Position numbers and translations under genes: made by a program
The notes under the pieces: model-generated
What the model was told of the DNA's origin: nothing
What the model saw: the letters and a program-made list of their open reading frames with translations, nothing else
Database searches by the model: none
In this document: positions 13,291 through 40,165 of the stretch, piece by piece
Layout: each line of letters starts with the position of its first letter
Numbering within the stretch: position 1 is the first letter of the stretch
Source: a virus
Lineage: Duplodnaviria; Caudoviricetes
DNA: 64,000 nucleotides
IMG/VR virus record: IMGVR_UViG_3300014204_000161
Span: 14,916-78,915 of that record
Direction: 5' to 3' (one strand)

Positions 13291-14001
13291 TTACTTTTTA
13301 ACCGGTGGAATTGGTTTTTCGGTTACCTTTCCTTTTTGATCAGTTTCAGCCATCTTCTTTATGTTCTTCTTGAAAAGTTCTGTCTTGGAAACTGGTTTTT
13401 CCTGTTTAACTGGGGCTTTTCTTGCTACCTCTTTTATTTTCAGGTTAGGAAATCCGCCAGTCTGTTTCTTTTTGCGACCTTCGAACAGAGGATCTTCTTC
13501 GTCGTCCGGTTCAGCTCTGAACGTCTTATCGACGTCTGCTAATGCTTCTGGCTCTTCAGGCACATCTCCGAATTCGTCCTTAGGCTCATTTTCGTACTGA
13601 TCTACGAAATCATCTTCTTCCGTTTCGGTTTTTGATCTTCGAGCTTCCTTAGGTTTGAACTCGATTGAGTACGAAGCTTCCTTGGTAGTAGGATCGGCAT
13701 CGTCCAGCGTTAAATTAACGTCATACGGTTTTCCGCTCCATGTTTCAAAACCGAAGTCCCTTAACGTTAGCTTGTCCGGTGCATACTGGAAGTCCTGATC
13801 GCTCAGCTTTACTCGAATGGTATTTCCTTCAACTCCGAGAATCTTGTGACCTTCAAAGTTTCCGTTGACTATTCCTGCTGCAATTTTGGAAACTTCTTCC
13901 GGCATTGCGGTTCCAACCTCAGCTGCTAAATCAGTACCAATTTCTTCATTTGCAAAATTTTCGTTTACGAATCCTTTGAAGTCGAGAATGAAAGTTTTCA
14001 T
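13291..14001 (-). CDS. Acidic putative internal head protein
   Basis: Leader MKTFILDFKGFVNE; internal LFEG motif. Confidence 0.7.
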   Translation of the reverse strand: MKTFILDFKGFVNENFANEEIGTDLAAEVGTAMPEEVSKIAAGIVNGNFEGHKILGVEGNTIRVKLSDQDFQYAPDKLTLRDFGFETWSGKPYDVNLTLDDADPTTKEASYSIEFKPKEARRSKTETEEDDFVDQYENEPKDEFGDVPEEPEALADVDKTFRAEPDDEEDPLFEGRKKKQTGGFPNLKIKEVARKAPVKQEKPVSKTELFKKNIKKMAETDQKGKVTEKPIPPVKK

Positions 14002-14028
14002 GTGTATCAATGTAATTTTATGGAGAAA

Positions 14029-14403
14029 TTATTTCTTTTTGTCCAAACCGAAGTTCTTTCTAGCTTGTTCGCTTTTTGACAGCTTAGGACCAGTTTTTCC
14101 AGCAGGTTTAGCAGGGTCCTTTTCGTCCTTACCGTTTGGTTTTCCGAATGCGAAAGGCTTACCTTTTTCTGTTGGTTTCTTTGCTCCCTTTTCAAAAGGC
14201 TTTCCGAACGGAGGTTTCTTTGCCTCTGTAATTTCGGGAAACTCGCTAGGCTTATCGAATTCTTGGGCAGCAGCAGTTAACTCTTCCTGTTTGGCGCCGC
14301 ATTCTGCGCAAGTGCCATCTTCCATTATTGCTCCGCCACATTCACATGTAGGTTCTAGCATTTCATTTACGAATTGACCGAAGCCTAATACAAACTGTTT
14401 CAT
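14029..14403 (-). CDS. Putative internal head protein with a small CxCG...CxxCG zinc motif and a K/P-rich tail
   Basis: Leader MKQFVLGFGQFVNE; CECGG...CAECG. Confidence 0.7.
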   Translation of the reverse strand: MKQFVLGFGQFVNEMLEPTCECGGAIMEDGTCAECGAKQEELTAAAQEFDKPSEFPEITEAKKPPFGKPFEKGAKKPTEKGKPFAFGKPNGKDEKDPAKPAGKTGPKLSKSEQARKNFGLDKKK

Positions 14404-14418
14404 TATCGATTTATTATT

Positions 14419-14865
14419 TTACGGCTCTACGTCCGAATCTTCTGATGTTATTCCGAGCATCTCGTCATTGAACTTATCGTATTCGGCCACAGTGTCCTTC
14501 ATCGTTTGATTAAGGGTGGTCAATTCTGCCTTCAACTCTTCAATTTTTTGCGTGTCCTCTTCGGATACTGAGTTTTGCCGAGTTTCAATAGGGATTCCCA
14601 TGTACTCTTTCTGTTTCTCCTTGAATGCTTTTATTGCTTCCTTTCTGGCCTTATCAATTTCATCGAATCGATCGGCTTCGGAAGCAGGCGATTGAGAAGC
14701 ATCTTCAACTGGTGGAACATCAGTAGGTGATGCATCCGATACTCCAGTGGTGTCTGTGACTGGTTGTTCTATTGGAGCAGCAGGAGGCGGAGCGACAGGA
14801 TTAGTCGGATCGACCTGTTCTGATTCCTTTATCCACTCATCGTACATTTTAACTGAAACTGACAT
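14419..14865 (-). CDS. Putative internal head protein (coiled coil)
   Basis: Leader VKMYDEWIKES; late promoter at 14886-14893. Confidence 0.7.
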   Translation of the reverse strand: MSVSVKMYDEWIKESEQVDPTNPVAPPPAAPIEQPVTDTTGVSDASPTDVPPVEDASQSPASEADRFDEIDKARKEAIKAFKEKQKEYMGIPIETRQNSVSEEDTQKIEELKAELTTLNQTMKDTVAEYDKFNDEMLGITSEDSDVEP

Positions 14866-16434: not shown

Positions 16435-18354
16435 ATGATCAATTCCTTTATTCAATTGGTTCATGAATCAGCAGAAGTTAGTGAAATGGGGCTAAAGAAT
16501 ATCGAAACTCTTACTAACAGTGAACTTGGTCCAATACGAAAATTCACGTTAGTGTTAAAAGAGCTTCTCACCGCAATGCGAGCAATGAAAGGTTCCGACA
16601 TCGTAATGGAACAACAATCAAACCAAAGAAGATACTATCCAAGGTTACCACAGAATGTAGTTGCTCTGATGAGAGAGCTGCAATCAGTTGATCAAGGAAA
16701 GACCGATGCCACCATCGGTAATTGGAAGGACTTAGACCCAGATAATTGGGACACAATCTATTTCAAAACGGACGCACCTGATTTGTATCAGAGAAGCCAT
16801 TTTCCAAATGGTGGAATTCCAGTTAGTTTGCGTGGAATAGGACTCGGTGGAAAATTATATCGAGCCTTAGTAAAAAAAGTCGGATACATTTCTTCTAATA
16901 CTAGCGGTACTCGAGAGAAGGATAATGCATGGGGAACTCTATTATCATTCAAGGGAAATCCAGACGGAACTCCTTCTAGCGAAGATGTTCATGGAATAGT
17001 CGGGCCTAGCAGTTGGATGGCAATTGATAGGAGTTTGCCTGATAACAAGAAAGCTGAAATTGCCATGAATTTCATAAATGGATCAATTAGGCCTCGCAAT
17101 ACTGACCCAAACGAATTCGACATGGACGATGATTTGCTGGATGTTTTACCTGACGATTTTTTATCCGGCCTGAGTGGAGCTTATTTAAGATCTTTGGTTA
17201 CTCGCGGTAGGCTTACCCAGGAACGCTTGCACCAAATTGAATCTTCACGTGGAGAAGCAGAACGTCGTGAACGCGAAAGAATGGAAACTGCCGCTGCTGC
17301 TGAGAGGGAAAGATTGGCTAGGGAAGAACGACTGACACGAAAGAGACTCATTGCAAGGATTGCACGGTTCGGTGCTGATCCGGACGCCGATTGGGATCTT
17401 AGGGATTACATTGTCGTGAAGCAGTACCTGTACCAAGCAGATTACGAACTGTTGCCAATTCGAAGAGTTGAGGCTATCCGTAATGGCGAGTATGTTGCAG
17501 TTAGTATCAAAGACGCGATTAGACTTCAAAATAACGAAATAACTCTTGACCAGTGCGGTGATACTCGAACTACTCGCGATAAAACGCGTTGGGTAAAAGT
17601 AAATCTTAACGAAATTCCAGATCTTGACAATGTAAACTTGAGTCCACCAGAAAAGAGATACATTGAATCTCAATTGAATCCTGACGTAGCTGCAAGAATA
17701 CAAGCAGAAAGAGACGAAGAAGAAAGATTAAGAAGGGAAAGAGAGCGCGAAGCAAATGCTCCTAGAGTTACTGCGAATAGACCTGCTGAAACTTTTGGAA
17801 TGGTTCCATCTGGCGGAGCAGAAATTAAAGATTGGTTAACTGATCGCCCAAATCATTCAACTTACCAGAACACATTGAGACTGTTCAAGGATCCAAGGTT
17901 CGTTCGTGAAATGCGATTCATTGTTCTTGGCCCTCCACAGAGAGCCGCAATGCGAAATTCTTGGGGAATTCCGGTGTTCATCCCTTGGATAAGAAACGGA
18001 AGAAACGGAATGCGGCCTATCATGACGATCGACGAATTGAATGGGTCAGCTCATCCGCATCTCACGAATGCAGTTACAGGATTCGAACTGGAAGGACCTT
18101 TTTCTGGATTGGGACTGACTGCTTATCCTTTAGCTGAAGTAACGATTGCTGATAAATTGGGAGCTAGAGCTGGAGAACACTTCTATGTCGCTGCTCATCA
18201 GAACACGTACGGAATAATTGCTAAAAGCGATTATGGAGCAGTCAATACGAATCGTCAGAGATTCATCTACATAAAGGCATACGGTTTTGCCGGTCGTAGC
18301 GTATCGGTTAGGCTCGATCTCCTGAGAAAGCTTGGAGCCCCTGTTGAAGTGTAA
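16435..18354 (+). CDS. Putative packaged protein with a GNAT-like acetyltransferase domain
   Basis: Leader MINSFIQLVHES; SLRGIGLGGKLYRAL matches the R/QxxGxG/A acetyl-CoA loop; E/R-rich coiled coils. Confidence 0.6.
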   Translation: MINSFIQLVHESAEVSEMGLKNIETLTNSELGPIRKFTLVLKELLTAMRAMKGSDIVMEQQSNQRRYYPRLPQNVVALMRELQSVDQGKTDATIGNWKDLDPDNWDTIYFKTDAPDLYQRSHFPNGGIPVSLRGIGLGGKLYRALVKKVGYISSNTSGTREKDNAWGTLLSFKGNPDGTPSSEDVHGIVGPSSWMAIDRSLPDNKKAEIAMNFINGSIRPRNTDPNEFDMDDDLLDVLPDDFLSGLSGAYLRSLVTRGRLTQERLHQIESSRGEAERRERERMETAAAAERERLAREERLTRKRLIARIARFGADPDADWDLRDYIVVKQYLYQADYELLPIRRVEAIRNGEYVAVSIKDAIRLQNNEITLDQCGDTRTTRDKTRWVKVNLNEIPDLDNVNLSPPEKRYIESQLNPDVAARIQAERDEEERLRREREREANAPRVTANRPAETFGMVPSGGAEIKDWLTDRPNHSTYQNTLRLFKDPRFVREMRFIVLGPPQRAAMRNSWGIPVFIPWIRNGRNGMRPIMTIDELNGSAHPHLTNAVTGFELEGPFSGLGLTAYPLAEVTIADKLGARAGEHFYVAAHQNTYGIIAKSDYGAVNTNRQRFIYIKAYGFAGRSVSVRLDLLRKLGAPVEV

Positions 18355-29090: not shown

Positions 29091-29834
29091 TTATAGAGAT
29101 TGGAATTGGCTCCCAATTCCATTCGATTTTAATAATGTATTCAAATGAGCAACTTCGTCTCTATCTAATTCCTGGCCGATCCAGTAAGCTAATGAACAAT
29201 CATTGGTGTATTTTCTGTTTGCTGCTTCGGATTTGAATTTTGCAAAATCTGTTACGTTTCCTGCGCCGTACGTGTTGTACCCCATTTTCAGGCTTCCAAA
29301 GTACTTTGCAAACTTCGTGAATTCATCCTGACTCTTTATTCCAGTGAATACATCAATTATTCCTTCTTCGTCTGTTCCCATGTCCTGCATAGCTTTCAAA
29401 AGTTTAAGAGTCAAATCGTCAAACTTTGCTGGATTTGCAGGTTGCACTGCTGGTTTTGGAGCGGCAGGTTTTGCTTGGCCACCGGCTGCTGGAGTGGCTG
29501 GAGCTCCTTTGCTTCCAGTTGCAGTGAATTTCGTGGCAGTATTCGTGTAAGAAACAATCCCAGTATCTTCAGCAACTTTCCATTCGACTGGAACCTGTGC
29601 GCCCTTTATTGTCAAAGTCAAAGTCCCCGTGTAAACTGGAGGATTAGCATTGACTTTAGCAACAACATCATTTTTCAATTGGTTCCAAGCAGTAGTAGCT
29701 TCTTGGTTGGTTCCTGTTCCGGACTTGGCTGCCAGAACTCCCGATAATGGATCAGCATCTTCTGTGATCATCTCAGAAGATTCGTTTATGAGAGCGAATC
29801 TTTTTAATTCAATGTCTCTGGCATAAGTGCTCAT
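29091..29834 (-). CDS. Putative internal virion protein with an annexin-like repeat
   Basis: Leader ...RFALINES; LLKAMQDMGTDEEGIIDVF matches the annexin endonexin motif. Confidence 0.65.
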   Translation of the reverse strand: MSTYARDIELKRFALINESSEMITEDADPLSGVLAAKSGTGTNQEATTAWNQLKNDVVAKVNANPPVYTGTLTLTIKGAQVPVEWKVAEDTGIVSYTNTATKFTATGSKGAPATPAAGGQAKPAAPKPAVQPANPAKFDDLTLKLLKAMQDMGTDEEGIIDVFTGIKSQDEFTKFAKYFGSLKMGYNTYGAGNVTDFAKFKSEAANRKYTNDCSLAYWIGQELDRDEVAHLNTLLKSNGIGSQFQSL

Positions 29835-29860
29835 GTTTATCATATTCGTGTCGTATGTTT

Positions 29861-30910
29861 TTAGAAGTACAAATTCGGAACTTTAGGGTTATTCGTTTTT
29901 ACCGAAACTACCTGAGCAACCGGAGCTGCCGCAGCGACTGGACCAAGAGCAGCATTTAACTTATCTGAAATTTCCTGAGTGATTGCCGTTATTGGAGTAT
30001 CCGGAGTTCCTATTACTTGTGCGATAGCCTTAGCAGTATTGTCTCCGAATTTACCGTCAGCTCCGCCTCTTTGTTTTAGCGTTTCAGCAGCAGGTCCGCC
30101 CTTAGTAATGATTCTCTGTTGCAATTCTTGAACAGATTTGTTGAACTGCAAATTCTTTGCGATGTTGGCGTAAGATGGGCCAGTCGCAGGAGGAGGTGTT
30201 GCAGGCGGTGGAGTCGCAGGAGGAGGTGTTGCAGGTGGTGGAGTAGCCGGAGGCGGAGTTTCCTGTTTAGGTTCTTCAATTTTAGAAGATGCATCGAGCA
30301 TGGATTGCAAATCGGCTTTCACTTCTGCACTGCCTATTGTCGATGCATCGTAAATCTTTAGATCTTCAAATAGAGGCATCGTAACTTCTTCCTTTACTGT
30401 TGGCACTGGTTGATCAGGAGTTGCGTTTGCTGCAGGGGTTGGAGTTCCATCAGGAATAGTAGCGATCGCAGTAGCCGATTGTAATTGATCCGGCGTGAAA
30501 TGATTTCCCTGATAGAACGAAACAGCACCCGTGTAAACGTAATCACCAACTGCTCTTGTCTGATCCTTCTTAATGTCGATAACCCCAACCATGTCAGATT
30601 TCAATTGACCACCAGTTACTTGGCTGCTAATCATTGATGTGAGTTCATCGATAGCTTTCCTTTTTGCAGCAGTAGGATCGATTTCTTCCGAGTTCACGTA
30701 CTTAAAATCGAATTTCAGAACCTCGCCCTTATTCGTGTCAGGTGTGCCCATTGCGATCTTAATCTTAGTATTGTCTGTGACCTGTTTACCGCGATTGTCA
30801 TTGTACACGGTCTTTTCTTTGTGACGATCCTCTTCCACCGTTGAATTATCAGTCGATTCGTTTAATGACCTCTGATATTCGGCGAAACTTTTTATCTTAA
30901 ACTCGCTCAT
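29861..30910 (-). CDS. Putative internal virion protein with a Pro-rich linker and C-terminal peptidoglycan-binding domain
   Basis: Leader IKSFAEYQRSLNES; (PPPAT)x5; VQELQQRI...GADGKFGDNTAKAIAQ. Confidence 0.7.
   Translation of the reverse strand: MSEFKIKSFAEYQRSLNESTDNSTVEEDRHKEKTVYNDNRGKQVTDNTKIKIAMGTPDTNKGEVLKFDFKYVNSEEIDPTAAKRKAIDELTSMISSQVTGGQLKSDMVGVIDIKKDQTRAVGDYVYTGAVSFYQGNHFTPDQLQSATAIATIPDGTPTPAANATPDQPVPTVKEEVTMPLFEDLKIYDASTIGSAEVKADLQSMLDASSKIEEPKQETPPPATPPPATPPPATPPPATPPPATGPSYANIAKNLQFNKSVQELQQRIITKGGPAAETLKQRGGADGKFGDNTAKAIAQVIGTPDTPITAITQEISDKLNAALGPVAAAAPVAQVVSVKTNNPKVPNLYF
30183..30260 (-). repeat. 15-bp tandem repeat encoding (PPPAT)5
   Basis: Five degenerate 15-nt units read directly. 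Confidence 0.85.
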
Positions 30911-37502: not shown

Positions 37503-38303
37503 TCAGATATTTTTGAAAGCAGCGAAGTGAGTAATGAAATGCTTGTGATTCGCAGCTCTTGTGTTAACGTACACCCTTTCGAAATTATCGGTCATGATCT
37601 GCATGATTTCGGCAAATTTCGATTCGCGATTCTCAAGAAGCCAGCTGTAATGGAAATGGTACTCGACAATGATGAGCTTGATGTTGCTCCAATCGCGTAC
37701 GGCTTTGATAGTTTCGTATTCCATTCCTTCGATGTCCATCTTCACGCAATTGACCTTCTTTAGAACATCATTTATGTTCTCGGCTGGAACGACCATAATT
37801 TCACGGCCTTTGACCGGATGCACACTATGTTTTCCGGAATCGTGGGAAAGGAAGAATTCAACATTTGGAGAATCGTCCACAACGATTGCTTTTTCGACCA
37901 ATTCGCAACGACCTTCAACTCCATTCATTTCTAAATTCTGCTGTGCGAACTCGATGTTGTTATGGAAAGGTTCGTATGCGTACACCTTACGAATACGTGG
38001 AAATTGGGTCAGCATTCTGACTGCGAATATTCCGATGTGAGCACCCGCGTCCAACCAAGTATCTTCCTGATTGAGATCTTCTAGGGTCAATGATGGAAAC
38101 CCCTGAGCATAATGAGGTATGAAGAGAGGTTTGAAGTACTCTCCACTAGTTGGCTTGATTGAAATATTCTGTGAAATGTTGAACTTGATCTCTTCATCCG
38201 ATCTTACGAGAAAGCGATAGTCATGATATTTAGTACGTTTTTCGTACACTTGGAGAGTTCCTGCTAGTCTAGCCTCCTCTATTGAGCATAATACGTCCGC
38301 CAT
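37503..38303 (-). CDS. FkbM-family SAM-dependent methyltransferase
   Basis: WLDAGAHIGIFA, YAYEP...N, VKMDIEGMEY; GTAGTATAAT promoter at 38325-38334. Confidence 0.9.
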   Translation of the reverse strand: MADVLCSIEEARLAGTLQVYEKRTKYHDYRFLVRSDEEIKFNISQNISIKPTSGEYFKPLFIPHYAQGFPSLTLEDLNQEDTWLDAGAHIGIFAVRMLTQFPRIRKVYAYEPFHNNIEFAQQNLEMNGVEGRCELVEKAIVVDDSPNVEFFLSHDSGKHSVHPVKGREIMVVPAENINDVLKKVNCVKMDIEGMEYETIKAVRDWSNIKLIIVEYHFHYSWLLENRESKFAEIMQIMTDNFERVYVNTRAANHKHFITHFAAFKNI

Positions 38304-38336: not shown

Positions 38337-38633
38337 TTACTTGTCTGGATCTAAGTCGAACGGTGTTCCCTTGATATTTACCTCGCTTTTGTTCTCTGGG
38401 TTGACTCCAGATTCTTGGTACTTGTCATCTTTTGGCTTTTCTACCTCCTTGATGTCTGTTGCTTTGACTGGAATTGCTCGGTTATCACTAGTCATAATCT
38501 GATACTCATGGTCCATTGGGTCAACGCCAATGATCGTTCCAGATTTTCCGTCTTTAAGGATTACTTTCTGACCAGCTTTGTATTTCGAAGTCTTTGGATG
38601 AACTAAGGTTATGTCCTCAGCTTCATTTAGACT
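38337..38633 (-). CDS. -1 frameshift extension (98 aa, SH3/KOW-like) of the 38627-40165 protein
   Basis: Open -1 frame starting at the A9 run: SLNEAEDITLVHPKTSKYKAGQKVILKDGKSGTIIGVD...; no start codon at its 5' end; missed by the ORF track. Confidence 0.75.
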   Translation of the reverse strand, partial: SLNEAEDITLVHPKTSKYKAGQKVILKDGKSGTIIGVDPMDHEYQIMTSDNRAIPVKATDIKEVEKPKDDKYQESGVNPENKSEVNIKGTPFDLDPDK

Positions 38634-40165
38634 TTTTTTTTGCTTTGGTCAAGTGTGATGTAATGATTCTTGAGATCAACGATGTTCTTTTCGATCGCGC
38701 TCTTAAGGTCTCCTAATTGAACTTGGTATTCAGCAGTAAGAGTCTCGTCAGTCAATGCTTCTTCGAGTTGTTTAACTGAACCTTCCAGTTTTTCGAGGTC
38801 CTTATTGATTAGAGCTTTTTCTTCGTCGATATGCTTGATCGTCATGTCACGTTCTTCTAGCTGAATTGCATAGAGTTCGCTAACATCATAGTTGAAGTTC
38901 TCCATTACGTAACTGTGGAAAGCCAGTCCGTGCATTTTCTTTATGACTCTGGTGTTTCCAAGTTTTTCGAAAACTAACTGCTGATCACCTACTGTGAAAA
39001 CGATTGCATCTTTATCGAGGCGTTCGTTGATGATACGCTTAGCGAATTCGAGGTTTCCGATAAGTTCGAGGCCGTTGAACACCTTCACTAAGTTAGCTCT
39101 GATGTCAACTTGTTCCATCATGAACACTTGAGCAAGGTCGATCTTCGTGAGGTCTTCGATCGTTTTGTTGTTTATCTTGAGCTGTAGGTTGTTTGCTTCG
39201 TTGATTGCGAAAGCAATTTCGAGGTTCCTACCACGGCAGAAAATTTCGTTGTTTCTTTCCTGGAAATTCAATCTTGCGAAAGCTTCGCACAGTGCATAGA
39301 ATTCCGGATACTTCTGAGCTTCTTCTACTGGAACGGAAACGGGATCCTGATCTTCAGTTAACTTAACGAATGCATTGTCAATCAGAACGATTGCAGAAGA
39401 TTCATCTAACTTGAAGAAAGGAGCGATTACCGGCTTAACTTTTACTTCAGAATTTCCAAGGCCAATGTTGAACTTACCCTGAGTCTTAGCTTCTACCATG
39501 CTCAAGGTATTGACTAATCTTTTTACCACAGGCATTTCAACGTGACCACGCATCTTCATTTTGATGGTATCAGATTCAAACTGCTGCGCAAGAAGAGTTT
39601 CTTCAAGAATAGCAATAGGTTCCTTGTACATCATTCCGCTGGTCTGACGCATTTCGAAAATAGCGTTCATGATTTCCAGCTTTGCTCTGTTTTCGTTCAC
39701 GTATTTGGTCAAGTCAGTTAGAACCTGAGCAACTTCTGGCGAATACGAGTACGGGTTGAGTGCTTCATACACCTGGCCAATTGCCCTGAATTCAGGAACG
39801 TTATTGAGCAAGTTATCGATTCCGTTCAGAATGTGAGTGAAAGTAGGATCTTTTGCGACGTTAGCTTCTTTGAGCATGGTCATCTTCATCTTAATCCCAG
39901 CTTCTTTTGCCATGTTCTGAAGACGTTTGGTTGGTTTTTCAGCTAATTTTCTGAAATTCGCAACAACTTCCTTTAGGTCCTCGTTAACCATAGCAGTAGC
40001 GAGATCGTCCAGATTGGTTAGAGCAGTTTCCAATATTTGGTCGGACGGAACTCCAAGGAGAGTGGAATTGTTAATCGATTCGAGTATTACTCGTACGACT
40101 GCACTATCCTTAAGTTTAGGATTAGTTTTGAGCTCGGTTGTTAAATCTTGTATTAGGCCGTTCAT
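38627..40165 (-). CDS. Putative prohead core/scaffold-like protein
   Basis: 512 aa, helical; many (I/L/V)xE motifs (ILES, ILET, VNED, LKEA, INEA) of the T4 gp21-cleavage type; late promoter upstream. Confidence 0.6.
   Translation of the reverse strand: MNGLIQDLTTELKTNPKLKDSAVVRVILESINNSTLLGVPSDQILETALTNLDDLATAMVNEDLKEVVANFRKLAEKPTKRLQNMAKEAGIKMKMTMLKEANVAKDPTFTHILNGIDNLLNNVPEFRAIGQVYEALNPYSYSPEVAQVLTDLTKYVNENRAKLEIMNAIFEMRQTSGMMYKEPIAILEETLLAQQFESDTIKMKMRGHVEMPVVKRLVNTLSMVEAKTQGKFNIGLGNSEVKVKPVIAPFFKLDESSAIVLIDNAFVKLTEDQDPVSVPVEEAQKYPEFYALCEAFARLNFQERNNEIFCRGRNLEIAFAINEANNLQLKINNKTIEDLTKIDLAQVFMMEQVDIRANLVKVFNGLELIGNLEFAKRIINERLDKDAIVFTVGDQQLVFEKLGNTRVIKKMHGLAFHSYVMENFNYDVSELYAIQLEERDMTIKHIDEEKALINKDLEKLEGSVKQLEEALTDETLTAEYQVQLGDLKSAIEKNIVDLKNHYITLDQSKKKV

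What the first reader, a model, noticed from the sequence alone, without database searches (positions are those of the whole stretch)
38337..38641. Programmed -1 ribosomal frameshift extending a head-core-like protein, with a new protease site right after the shift
Seen: the 512-aa gene ends AGC AAA AAA AAA GTC TAA (A9 run, 38633-38641), a canonical A-AAA-AAA slippery heptamer. Six nt downstream an 11-bp hairpin begins (AUGAAGCUGAGG-acauaa-CCUUAGUUCAU, 38598-38626, one bulge). The -1 frame is open for 98 codons without its own start, begins S-L-N-E (the same LNE motif as the leaders) and encodes an SH3/KOW-like barrel, filling the otherwise empty gap. Known: slippery site, 5-9-nt spacer and hairpin is the standard -1 PRF layout; phage examples are mostly tail chaperones and some capsid proteins. 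Inference: 512-aa and ~609-aa isoforms, the longer one releasing a small domain on prohead maturation.
Basis: partly seen in the sequence, partly recalled or inferred. Interest (0 to 1): 0.85.

Follow-up and report, generated by a model that had tools for sequence, protein, structure and literature searches.

The report
Conserved poly-A frame-shift site, jumbo phage
A run of nine A's at the end of a 512-residue gene of an uncultured ~270-kb freshwater phage is a conserved recoding site.

Summary
The 512-aa ORF (38627-40165, minus strand) ends AGC AAA AAA AAA GTC TAA. The -1 frame then stays open for 98 codons with no usable start. A stable hairpin begins 6 nt after the run.

The split is not an assembly error. 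All 43 IMG/VR relatives, further assemblies, and a second clade at ~26% identity keep an A8-A11 run followed by the same out-of-frame extension. The three Lys codons show no synonymous change, while neighbouring codons vary normally. The extension evolves as a protein and folds as a Tudor/SH3/KOW-like barrel behind a disordered linker carrying an invariant [LI]-x-E.

The proposed mechanism is only partly supported:
- The hairpin is lineage-specific and shows no covariation.
- A10 lineages are in frame (609 aa) and arose at least twice.
- One A11 lineage needs the +1 frame.
- A metatranscriptome contig carries A10 where the matching metagenome contigs carry A9.

I therefore favour transcriptional slippage (about 0.55) over ribosomal -1 frameshifting (about 0.3). 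The protease-site idea is plausible but untested. The "head-core" label is unsupported. This is a new member of a known kind.

The parts
38627..40165 (-). 0-frame ORF of 512 aa (P0001), the short isoform. It has an N-terminal helical region, a beta-rich middle, and a C-terminal long helical hairpin (residues 428-511).
   Evidence: There are 89 homolog clusters, 71 of them 511-520 aa.
38633..38641 (-). A9 run (AAA AAA AAA = KKK), the slippage site. It also contains the in-frame heptamer A_AAA_AAA.
   Evidence: Zero synonymous variation in 23 diverged sequences. Only run of 9 or more in the window.
38627..38629 (-). 0-frame stop TAA, one codon after the run. The +1 frame also stops within 3 codons.
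   Evidence: TAA or TGA sits at this place in all A9 relatives of the family.
38598..38626 (-). Local 11-bp hairpin starting 6 nt 3' of the run. It is lineage-specific and not conserved.
   Evidence: z -4.72. Searches show no covariation and no consensus structure.
38337..38633 (-). -1 frame extension of 98 codons plus stop (P0002). Joined to residues 1-511 it gives the 609-aa long isoform.
   Evidence: Coding signature: synonymous/nonsynonymous 8005/14103 against 2461/20276 and 1430/21078 in the other two frames.
38622..38630 (-). L-N-E (extension residues 2-4) in a disordered linker. Candidate T4-type prohead-protease cleavage site (inferred).
   Evidence: [LI] at position 2 and E at position 4 in all 24 aligned extensions. 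pLDDT below 50 for extension residues 1-3 and 6-13. S77 protease in complete relatives.
38439..38585 (-). Small five-stranded beta-barrel (extension residues about 17-65), Tudor/SH3/KOW-like.
   Evidence: pLDDT 88-91. PHF1 Tudor 6wav_B, E 5e-3, TM 0.45/0.73, rmsd 2.7 over 55 columns; Spt5/NusG KOW also listed.

Best explanation
The A9 run at the end of the 512-aa gene is a programmed recoding site that yields two proteins from one gene. Templated decoding gives the 512-aa form (...SKKKV). Messages or ribosomes displaced by one base continue into the -1 frame and give a 609-aa form (...SKKK-SLNE...). That form adds a disordered linker and a Tudor/SH3-like barrel. The long form restores the domain order that distant relatives encode in one frame.

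The most likely main mechanism is RNA-polymerase slippage on the homopolymer. The host multi-subunit RNAP, directed by phage sigma factors, would add a non-templated A to a fraction of transcripts. The stops close by in both other frames make every other transcript class give a short form, as in Thermus thermophilus dnaX. Ribosomal -1 slippage on A_AAA_AAA may contribute.

Shown: the conservation of the run, of the split frame and of the extension as a protein, and one RNA contig with A10.

Inferred: the mechanism, the isoform ratio, and cleavage of the long form at [LI]-x-E by the S77 prohead protease.
For: 1. Conservation of the split.
- 38 of 43 IMG/VR loci have A9+G, 4 have A8GG, 1 has A11, and all carry an out-of-frame extension.
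- The most distant family member (46% identity) also has A9.
- A second clade at about 26% identity has A8-A10 runs with a -1 extension holding the same barrel in 14 loci.

2. The constraint lies on the run alone.
- The three Lys codons show 0.00 synonymous difference, against a gene mean of 0.45.
- Codons 5' and 3' of the run vary normally.
- AAA makes up only 45-85% of Lys codons elsewhere in the gene.

3. The run is never shorter than 8, although 7 nt would be enough for a ribosomal heptamer.

4. Run length and frame relation co-vary.
- A10 lineages are in frame and arose at least twice; an A11 lineage needs the +1 frame.
- Stops lie within 2-5 codons in both non-extension frames.

5. DNA against RNA.
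- L026 comes from IMG 3300010885, a metagenome co-assembly, and has A9.
- L055 comes from IMG 3300013295, the metatranscriptome co-assembly of the same lakes, and has A10.
- They are 99.9% identical over 3194 nt, and the only indel lies in the run. Sample types are from bioRxiv 10.1101/324970.
- All 15 listed members of that strain's 16-member cluster are short forms (13 of 512 aa, plus 502 and 382 aa), none 609 aa.

6. No conserved 3' structure.

7. Runs of 9 or more A are otherwise absent from coding sequence in two complete relatives of 253 and 271 kb.

8. Literature.
- Bacterial RNAP slips efficiently on 9 A or T, and T. thermophilus dnaX uses this (PMC5009743).
- IS elements keep runs of 8 or 9 A of variable length (PMC1088944).

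9. Polymerase.
- No RNAP beta-subunit gene was found in complete relatives. The T7-type RNAP search had no working control and is uninformative.
- A sigma-70-like gene lies in the window.
Against: - The RNA evidence is a single co-assembled contig. It differs from the DNA contigs by 2 substitutions as well, so an expressed A10 DNA variant, or reverse-transcriptase or PCR slippage, is not excluded.
- Every split relative keeps an in-frame X_XXY_YYZ heptamer (A_AAA_AAA, A_AAA_AAG or A_AAA_AAC). The A8GG lineages keep exactly the dnaX-type A_AAA_AAG.
- In the window the hairpin is at the canonical distance and is highly stable.
- In about 20 of 33 unique sequences of the close family, the 45 nt after the run rank in the lowest ~10% of the gene for folding energy.
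- E. coli RNAP is reported to need more A's than T's to slip (PMC6260861 abstract). The host polymerase here is unknown.
- No isoform has been observed as protein.
Confidence: 0.55

Rival explanations
1. Classical -1 programmed ribosomal frameshifting. Ribosomes slip on A_AAA_AAA (A_AAA_AAG in some relatives), helped in this phage by the hairpin 6 nt downstream and perhaps by the adjacent stop codon. The mRNA stays A9.
For: - An in-frame slippery heptamer is present in every split relative.
- The A8GG lineages keep A_AAA_AAG.
- The window hairpin has z -4.72 and canonical spacing.
- Folding after the run is stronger than the gene background in many close relatives, median percentile 0.09.
- A lineage-specific second hairpin shows a few compensatory synonymous changes.
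- Some tailed-phage frameshifts work without stimulators (PMC5009743).
Against: - No conserved or covarying 3' structure. Structure is absent in 11 or more lineages and in the whole second clade.
- No synonymous constraint beyond the run.
- The run is never shorter than 8 A.
- The A11 lineage, found in two independent assemblies, needs +1 or -2.
- The RNA-derived contig carries A10.
Confidence: 0.3
2. DNA-level length variation (replication slippage, like phase variation). The phage population is a mix of A9 and A10 genomes, and each genome makes only one isoform.
For: - A10 genomes exist and are assembled reproducibly, in 24 contigs read from 39 index blocks, including samples labelled METAG.
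- Homopolymers are hypermutable (PMC1088944).
- The A10 RNA contig could stem from such a variant.
Against: - Run state follows lineage on the tree. The split state is found throughout, and A10 and A11 occur only at tips.
- A9 and A10 sister lineages differ by synonymous changes next to the run.
- All 15 listed members of the P0018 strain's 16-member cluster are short forms, none 609 aa.
- Deep conservation of the out-of-frame state with an intact extension requires that the extension be expressed from A9 genomes.
Confidence: 0.07
3. Artefact or decay: the A9 is a homopolymer assembly error for A10, or the gene is a recent pseudogene and the extension is not made.
For: Homopolymers are error-prone. 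13 of 89 homolog clusters are in frame at 609 aa.
Against: - 71 of 89 clusters and all 43 IMG/VR loci are split, across independent assemblies and 46-90% identity.
- The extension keeps a coding signature and a foldable domain.
- A second clade repeats the arrangement.
Confidence: 0.03
4. The extension is a separate small gene translated from its own start or by termination-reinitiation.
For: - Gene callers call a 59-aa ORF from codon 40 here and 85-aa products in relatives.
- In the distant locus L093 the 0-frame stop overlaps an ATG in the extension frame (TAATG).
Against: - 9 of 33 unique sequences have no ATG, GTG or TTG in the first 45 extension codons, and positions differ in the rest.
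- Conservation starts at extension codon 2, directly at the run.
- In-frame fusions exist in nature.
Confidence: 0.03

Closest known systems
Thermus thermophilus dnaX (tau/gamma) transcriptional slippage at A9
   Same: [quoted passage not shown] Stops lie close by in the alternative frames, so two C-terminally different isoforms come from one gene. No RNA structure is needed (PMC5009743, PMC1088944).
   Different: In dnaX the long form is the templated one and slippage gives the short form. Here, in most lineages, the short form is templated and the long form needs +1 A. The A10 lineages here have the dnaX polarity. This case is in a phage, the protein is of unknown function, and slippage has not been shown experimentally.
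Shigella mxiE and spa13, and IS-element ORF fusions, by RNAP slippage on A/T runs
   Same: The long product needs a non-templated base. In Deinococcus IS elements the run is conserved while its length varies between 8 and 9 (PMC1088944). Here the range is A8-A11.
   Different: Different proteins and biology. Those cases were verified on RNA and protein; this one rests on comparative data plus one metatranscriptome contig.
E. coli dnaX -1 PRF at A_AAA_AAG
   Same: The A8GG relatives carry exactly this heptamer, and the window carries A_AAA_AAA. The product is a two-isoform set.
   Different: dnaX needs an upstream SD-like element and a conserved 3' stem-loop. Here no conserved flanking element exists.
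Frameshift-extended phage structural proteins (T7/T3 gene 10A/10B, Lactobacillus phage A2 head protein, Listeria phages, lambda G/GT)
   Same: A minor C-terminally extended isoform adds a small domain at fixed stoichiometry to a phage morphogenesis protein (PMC5009743).
   Different: Those are ribosomal shifts in identified capsid or chaperone genes. Here the protein's role is unknown, the added domain is a Tudor/SH3-like barrel rather than an Ig-like domain, and the signal is a bare homopolymer.
T4 capsid-targeting sequences and gp21 cleavage at (L/I)-x-E
   Same: Complete relatives encode an S77 (gp21-like) protease and a gp23-like capsid protein. Several window ORFs start with leaders ending in VNE, LNE or INE. 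The junction reads S-L-N-E.
   Different: The T4 targeting sequence is a short N-terminal leader. Here the motif lies between a 511-aa module and a C-terminal domain. Cleavage and head location are untested, and the motif is not enriched in distant relatives. The T4 motif itself is quoted from my own knowledge.

Membership tests
Canonical -1 programmed ribosomal frameshift signal | X_XXY_YYZ slippery heptamer in the 0 frame | tested here: met
   A_AAA_AAA in the window; A_AAA_AAG or A_AAA_AAC in relatives.
Canonical -1 programmed ribosomal frameshift signal | Stable 3' structure 5-9 nt after the heptamer | tested here: met
   In the window only: -12.7 kcal/mol, z -4.72, spacer 6 nt.
Canonical -1 programmed ribosomal frameshift signal | Stimulatory structure conserved or covarying among homologs | tested here: not met
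   69.9% of cells paired against 70.0% in shuffles. No RNAalifold consensus. No synonymous constraint 3' of the run. No structure in the second clade.
Canonical -1 programmed ribosomal frameshift signal | The same (-1) shift direction suffices in all homologs | tested here: not met
   The A11 lineage (L044, L052) has the extension in the +1 frame. A10 lineages need no shift.
Programmed transcriptional slippage at an A/T homopolymer | Uninterrupted run of about 8-9 or more A/T, conserved at nucleotide level | tested here: met
   A8-A11 in every split locus of two clades. Zero synonymous change in the run.
Programmed transcriptional slippage at an A/T homopolymer | Stops close by in the non-productive frames, so all transcript classes give defined products | tested here: met
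   The 0 and +1 frames stop within 2-5 codons of the run.
Programmed transcriptional slippage at an A/T homopolymer | mRNA population carries non-templated extra bases | tested here: inconclusive
   One metatranscriptome co-assembly contig has A10, against A9 in the metagenome contigs of the same lakes. No read-level counts are available.
Programmed transcriptional slippage at an A/T homopolymer | Transcribed by a slippage-prone polymerase (bacterial multi-subunit RNAP) | tested here: inconclusive
   No RNAP beta-subunit gene in two complete relatives. The T7-type search had no working control. A sigma-70-like ORF is in the window. The host is unknown.
Substrates of the T4-type (S77, gp21-like) prohead protease | Protease encoded by the phage | tested here: met
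   PF03420 above cut-off in G001 and G002, which are complete relatives. It is not in the 79-kb record of the window itself.
Substrates of the T4-type (S77, gp21-like) prohead protease | Accessible (L/I)-x-E motif conserved at the proposed site | tested here: met
   [LI] and E are invariant at extension positions 2 and 4. [LIV]-x-E-[SE] is present in the second clade. The linker has pLDDT below 50.
Substrates of the T4-type (S77, gp21-like) prohead protease | Motif more frequent at the module boundary than chance in the wider family | tested here: not met
   49 of 65 against a background of 73%. [LIVM]NE is found in 14 of 65 against 13.5%, p 0.05.
Substrates of the T4-type (S77, gp21-like) prohead protease | Protein present in proheads and cleaved there | not testable with these tools
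   Needs virion or prohead proteomics of a cultured relative.
T4-like head core or scaffold proteins | Sequence or fold similarity to a known core or scaffold protein | tested here: inconclusive
   No PHROG, Pfam or PDB sequence hit. No convincing fold match; only generic helical hairpins. BFVD relatives are all uncharacterised.
Tudor/SH3/KOW small beta-barrels | Five-stranded small barrel fold | tested here: met
   AF2 model. Foldseek probability 1.0 to PHF1/PHF19 Tudor and Spt5/NusG KOW, TM to target about 0.7. This is fold level only; no sequence family was hit.

The most novel reading that the evidence does not exclude
A deeply conserved case of productive RNA-polymerase slippage in a tailed-phage morphogenesis-region gene. 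The poly-A run would set the fraction of a ~510-aa carrier module that bears a C-terminal Tudor-like barrel. The T4-type prohead protease would then cut the barrel off at the invariant [LI]-x-E, so a small domain is delivered into or released within the capsid in sub-stoichiometric amounts. Lineages would tune the ratio by changing the run length (A8, A9, A10, A11).
Probability: 0.25. Interest if true: 0.7.

Novelty: new member of a known kind. Interest (0 to 1): 0.55.

Why it matters
- Annotation: gene callers split this gene into a 512-aa protein plus a spurious 59-85-aa ORF or an empty gap, in well over a hundred clusters of uncultured jumbo-phage proteins. The correct annotation is one gene with two isoforms.
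- Mechanism: the natural series A8/A9/A10/A11, with frames that shift accordingly, is a ready-made comparative test for telling transcriptional from ribosomal frameshifting. The paired public metagenomes and metatranscriptomes make this directly testable at read level.
- Scope: if the RNA-level mechanism holds, it would extend productive transcriptional slippage from cellular genes, IS elements and RNA viruses to large dsDNA phages. The phage frameshifts covered in the review read here (PMC5009743) are ribosomal.
- Protein family: the work defines a widespread phage protein family, a ~510-aa module followed by a small barrel, whose function is unknown.

Tried and rejected
- Phage-collection searches by DNA and protein with the gene and the extension found nothing.
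- PHROG and Pfam found nothing for either part. The PDB profile search found nothing useful. The ESM Atlas look-up of the extension gave no usable hit.
- Foldseek against PDB for the 512-aa model gave no match at E <= 1e-3. VIA wide search matched only the C-terminal helical hairpin to generic coiled coils, Z about 10-12, which is within the noise for helical models.
- BFVD gave only uncharacterised phage proteins, including Tenacibaculum phages PTm1 and pT24. A profile search of the PTm1 genome with A1 found nothing, so no virion-proteomics annotation could be transferred.
- The metagenome-contig scan with the extension profile gave only 10 loci, all split, and no further RNA-derived contig.
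- Two more strain-cluster members (P0095, P0098) came from samples whose type I could not establish.
- A search for fused forms of the second clade found no DNA/RNA pair.
- I tested and rejected enrichment of [LIVM]-x-E at the module boundary in 65 distant relatives.
- The search for a T7-like RNAP had no working control and is uninformative.
Full report
**1. The observation**

The feature lies on the minus strand.
- The 512-aa ORF 38627-40165 ends GAC CAA AGC AAA AAA AAA GTC TAA.
- Starting at the last A of the run (38633), the -1 frame reads SLNEAEDITLVHPK... for 98 codons to a stop at 38337-38339.
- The first possible start codon in that frame is at codon 40.
- The extension fills the space before the next gene, an FkbM-type methyltransferase at 37503-38303.
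It folds at -12.7 kcal/mol, z = -4.72, and none of 200 dinucleotide shuffles fold as well.
- The run is the only homopolymer of 9 or more A or T in the window. Runs of 8 or more are depleted: 3 overlapping matches against 16 +/- 6 expected.

**2. Context**

- The window is part of a 78.9-kb IMG/VR virus record estimated to be 29% complete.
- Complete relatives are 253-271 kb, one with terminal repeats.
- The window holds a T4-type large terminase, a baseplate wedge protein, a DNA ligase, PhoH and a sigma-70-like protein.
- Complete relatives encode a T4 gp23-like capsid protein and an S77 (gp21-like) prohead protease domain, about 100 kb away from this gene.
- They have no RNAP beta-subunit gene. 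The T7-type RNAP search had no working control.
- The 512-aa protein has no PHROG, Pfam or PDB relative.
- Its model (pLDDT 80) has a helical N-terminal part, a beta-rich middle and a long C-terminal helical hairpin. The only structural relatives are uncharacterised phage proteins.
- 'Head-core-like' is therefore unsupported.

**3. The split frame is conserved, not an error**

- A search of 5.8 billion proteins gave 89 clusters. Of these, 71 are 511-520 aa and 13 are 609 aa, exactly the predicted fusion, reading ...DQSKKKSLNE....
- All 43 IMG/VR loci carry the split: 38 with A9+G, 4 with A8GG, 1 with A11.
- The most distant family member (46% identity) also has A9 and a -1 extension.
- The extension is conserved as protein at 26-93% identity, with G21, L26, Y44 and D50 invariant.
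- It shows a coding signature only in that frame. Synonymous/nonsynonymous codon differences are 8005/14103, against 2461/20276 and 1430/21078 in the other two frames.
- It has no conserved start codon. Nine of 33 unique sequences have none in the first 45 codons.
- It folds as a five-stranded barrel behind a disordered 13-residue linker. Foldseek matches are Tudor and KOW domains.

**4. The wider family**

A profile search of 1.84 billion representatives found 182 relatives.
- The ~510-aa module is the N-terminal part of proteins of 526-1820 aa.
- In most long ones the same small barrel follows directly in frame, for example P0106, P0114 and P0124.
- The long isoform therefore restores the family's usual domain order.
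- A second clade at about 26% identity again ends in KKK. In 14 IMG/VR loci it has an A8-A10 run followed by a -1 frame extension of 78-115 residues, with [LIV]-x-E-[SE] and the barrel.
- Nearly all 63 clusters of that clade are short forms.

**5. Which mechanism?**

Several results bear on this.
- (a) The constraint is on the run alone. The three Lys codons have zero synonymous differences in 23 diverged sequences, against a gene mean of 0.45. Codons on both sides vary normally.
69.9% of cells pair, against 70.0% in shuffles, and RNAalifold predicts no consensus structure.
  - In fairness, in about 20 of 33 unique close relatives the 45 nt after the run fold better than 90% of windows of the same gene. 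The helices differ between lineages, however, and 11 or more lineages have none.
  - The second clade has none either (z -1.6 to +1.2).
- (c) The run is never shorter than 8 A.
- (d) Run length and frame co-vary. A10 lineages are in frame, are reproducibly assembled from many samples and arose at least twice. An A11 lineage, seen in two independent assemblies, has the extension in the +1 frame.
- (e) Both non-extension frames stop within 2-5 codons, the same layout as T. thermophilus dnaX (PMC5009743).
- (f) One DNA/RNA comparison exists.
  - The 38-kb contig L026 comes from IMG 3300010885 and has A9.
  - The 3.2-kb contig L055 comes from IMG 3300013295 and has A10.
  - They are otherwise 99.9% identical. 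They differ by two substitutions, and the single indel lies in the run.
  - bioRxiv 10.1101/324970 states that 3300010885 is the metagenome co-assembly and 3300013295 the metatranscriptome co-assembly of the same Quebec lakes.
  - All 15 listed members of that strain's 16-member cluster are short forms (13 of 512 aa, plus 502 and 382 aa), none 609 aa.
- (g) All other runs of 9 or more A in two complete relatives are intergenic.

Known biology fits. Bacterial RNAP slips efficiently on 9 A or T, and IS elements keep runs of 8 or 9 A of varying length (PMC5009743, PMC1088944).

Ribosomal slippage stays possible. An in-frame heptamer is kept everywhere, including dnaX-type A_AAA_AAG. The window's hairpin sits at the canonical distance. 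The review notes that both processes may act at one site. The RNA evidence is a single co-assembled contig, so an expressed A10 variant or a reverse-transcriptase artefact cannot be excluded.

My odds:
- Recoding is real: above 0.9.
- Mainly transcriptional: about 0.55.
- Mainly ribosomal: about 0.3.
- DNA-level variation: about 0.07.
- Error, or a separate gene: about 0.03 each.

**6. The protease-site idea**

For:
- [LI] and E at extension positions 2 and 4 are invariant in an otherwise variable, disordered linker.
- The second clade keeps [LIV]-x-E-[SE] at the equivalent place.
- Relatives have an S77 protease.
- Several window ORFs begin with T4 capsid-targeting-like leaders ending VNE, LNE or INE (following the scan's own notes).

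Against:
- In 65 distant in-frame relatives the motif is no more frequent at the module boundary than elsewhere (75% against 73%). [LIVM]NE is only marginally enriched.
- Nothing shows that the protein is in the head.

I rate it plausible and untested.

**7. Comparison and novelty**

The closest known systems are:
- T. thermophilus dnaX (A9, two isoforms, nearby stops);
- Shigella mxiE and spa13, and IS-element fusions, where the long form needs an added base;
- E. coli dnaX (A_AAA_AAG);
- frameshift-extended phage structural proteins such as T7/T3 10A/10B, phage A2 and lambda G/GT.

The present case is a new member of that kind. It is notable for its depth of conservation in an uncultured jumbo-phage group, for the natural A8-A11 series, and for public paired DNA/RNA data that make the mechanism directly testable.

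Noticed in passing
window 13291-14010(-), 14029-14403(-), 14419-14865(-), 16435-18354(+), 29091-29843(-), 29861-30910(-): Several unrelated ORFs start with leaders resembling the T4 capsid-targeting sequence and ending in [LIV]-[NKH]-E. Examples: MKTFILDFKGFVNE, MKQFVLGFGQFVNE, ...SFAEYQRSLNE. This agrees with the scan's earlier notes.
   Followed up: partly
window, whole; G001 and G002 (L072-L075): A/T runs of 8 or more are strongly depleted: 3 matches against 16 expected in the window. In two complete relatives every other run of 9 or more A is intergenic, lying before start codons or next to terminator-like hairpins.
   Followed up: yes
P0106-P0254: The ~510-aa module is the N-terminal part of proteins up to 1820 aa. 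After the small barrel come long acidic or other C-terminal regions. One has a Fusellovirus VP2-like domain (P0112) and two have DUF6926 (P0135, P0137). This is a large uncharacterised phage protein family.
   Followed up: partly
L093:3050-3100: In the most distant split locus the 0-frame stop overlaps an ATG of the extension frame (TAATG). There the barrel protein might also be made by translational coupling.
   Followed up: no
L084:3060-3100: One member of the second clade ends ...SKK*, with AAA AAG TAA TAA and no run of 8 or more A. It has no extension ORF, so it appears to have lost the barrel.
   Followed up: no
G001:C1:100030-100365 and G002:C1:65965-66306 (L067, L068): The S77 prohead-protease domain of complete relatives lies inside a 674-aa open frame. 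That is much longer than T4 gp21, suggesting a protease fused to another region.
   Followed up: no
L048:5166-6243: In one A10 relative the 353-aa gene after the methyltransferase is called as two pieces of 191 and 156 aa. This could be a frameshift, an assembly error or a real split.
   Followed up: no
L066:339-379: One relative uses TCA for the preceding Ser, so the physical run is A10 while the frame relation is still that of the A9 forms. The physical run length can change without changing the coding frames.
   Followed up: partly
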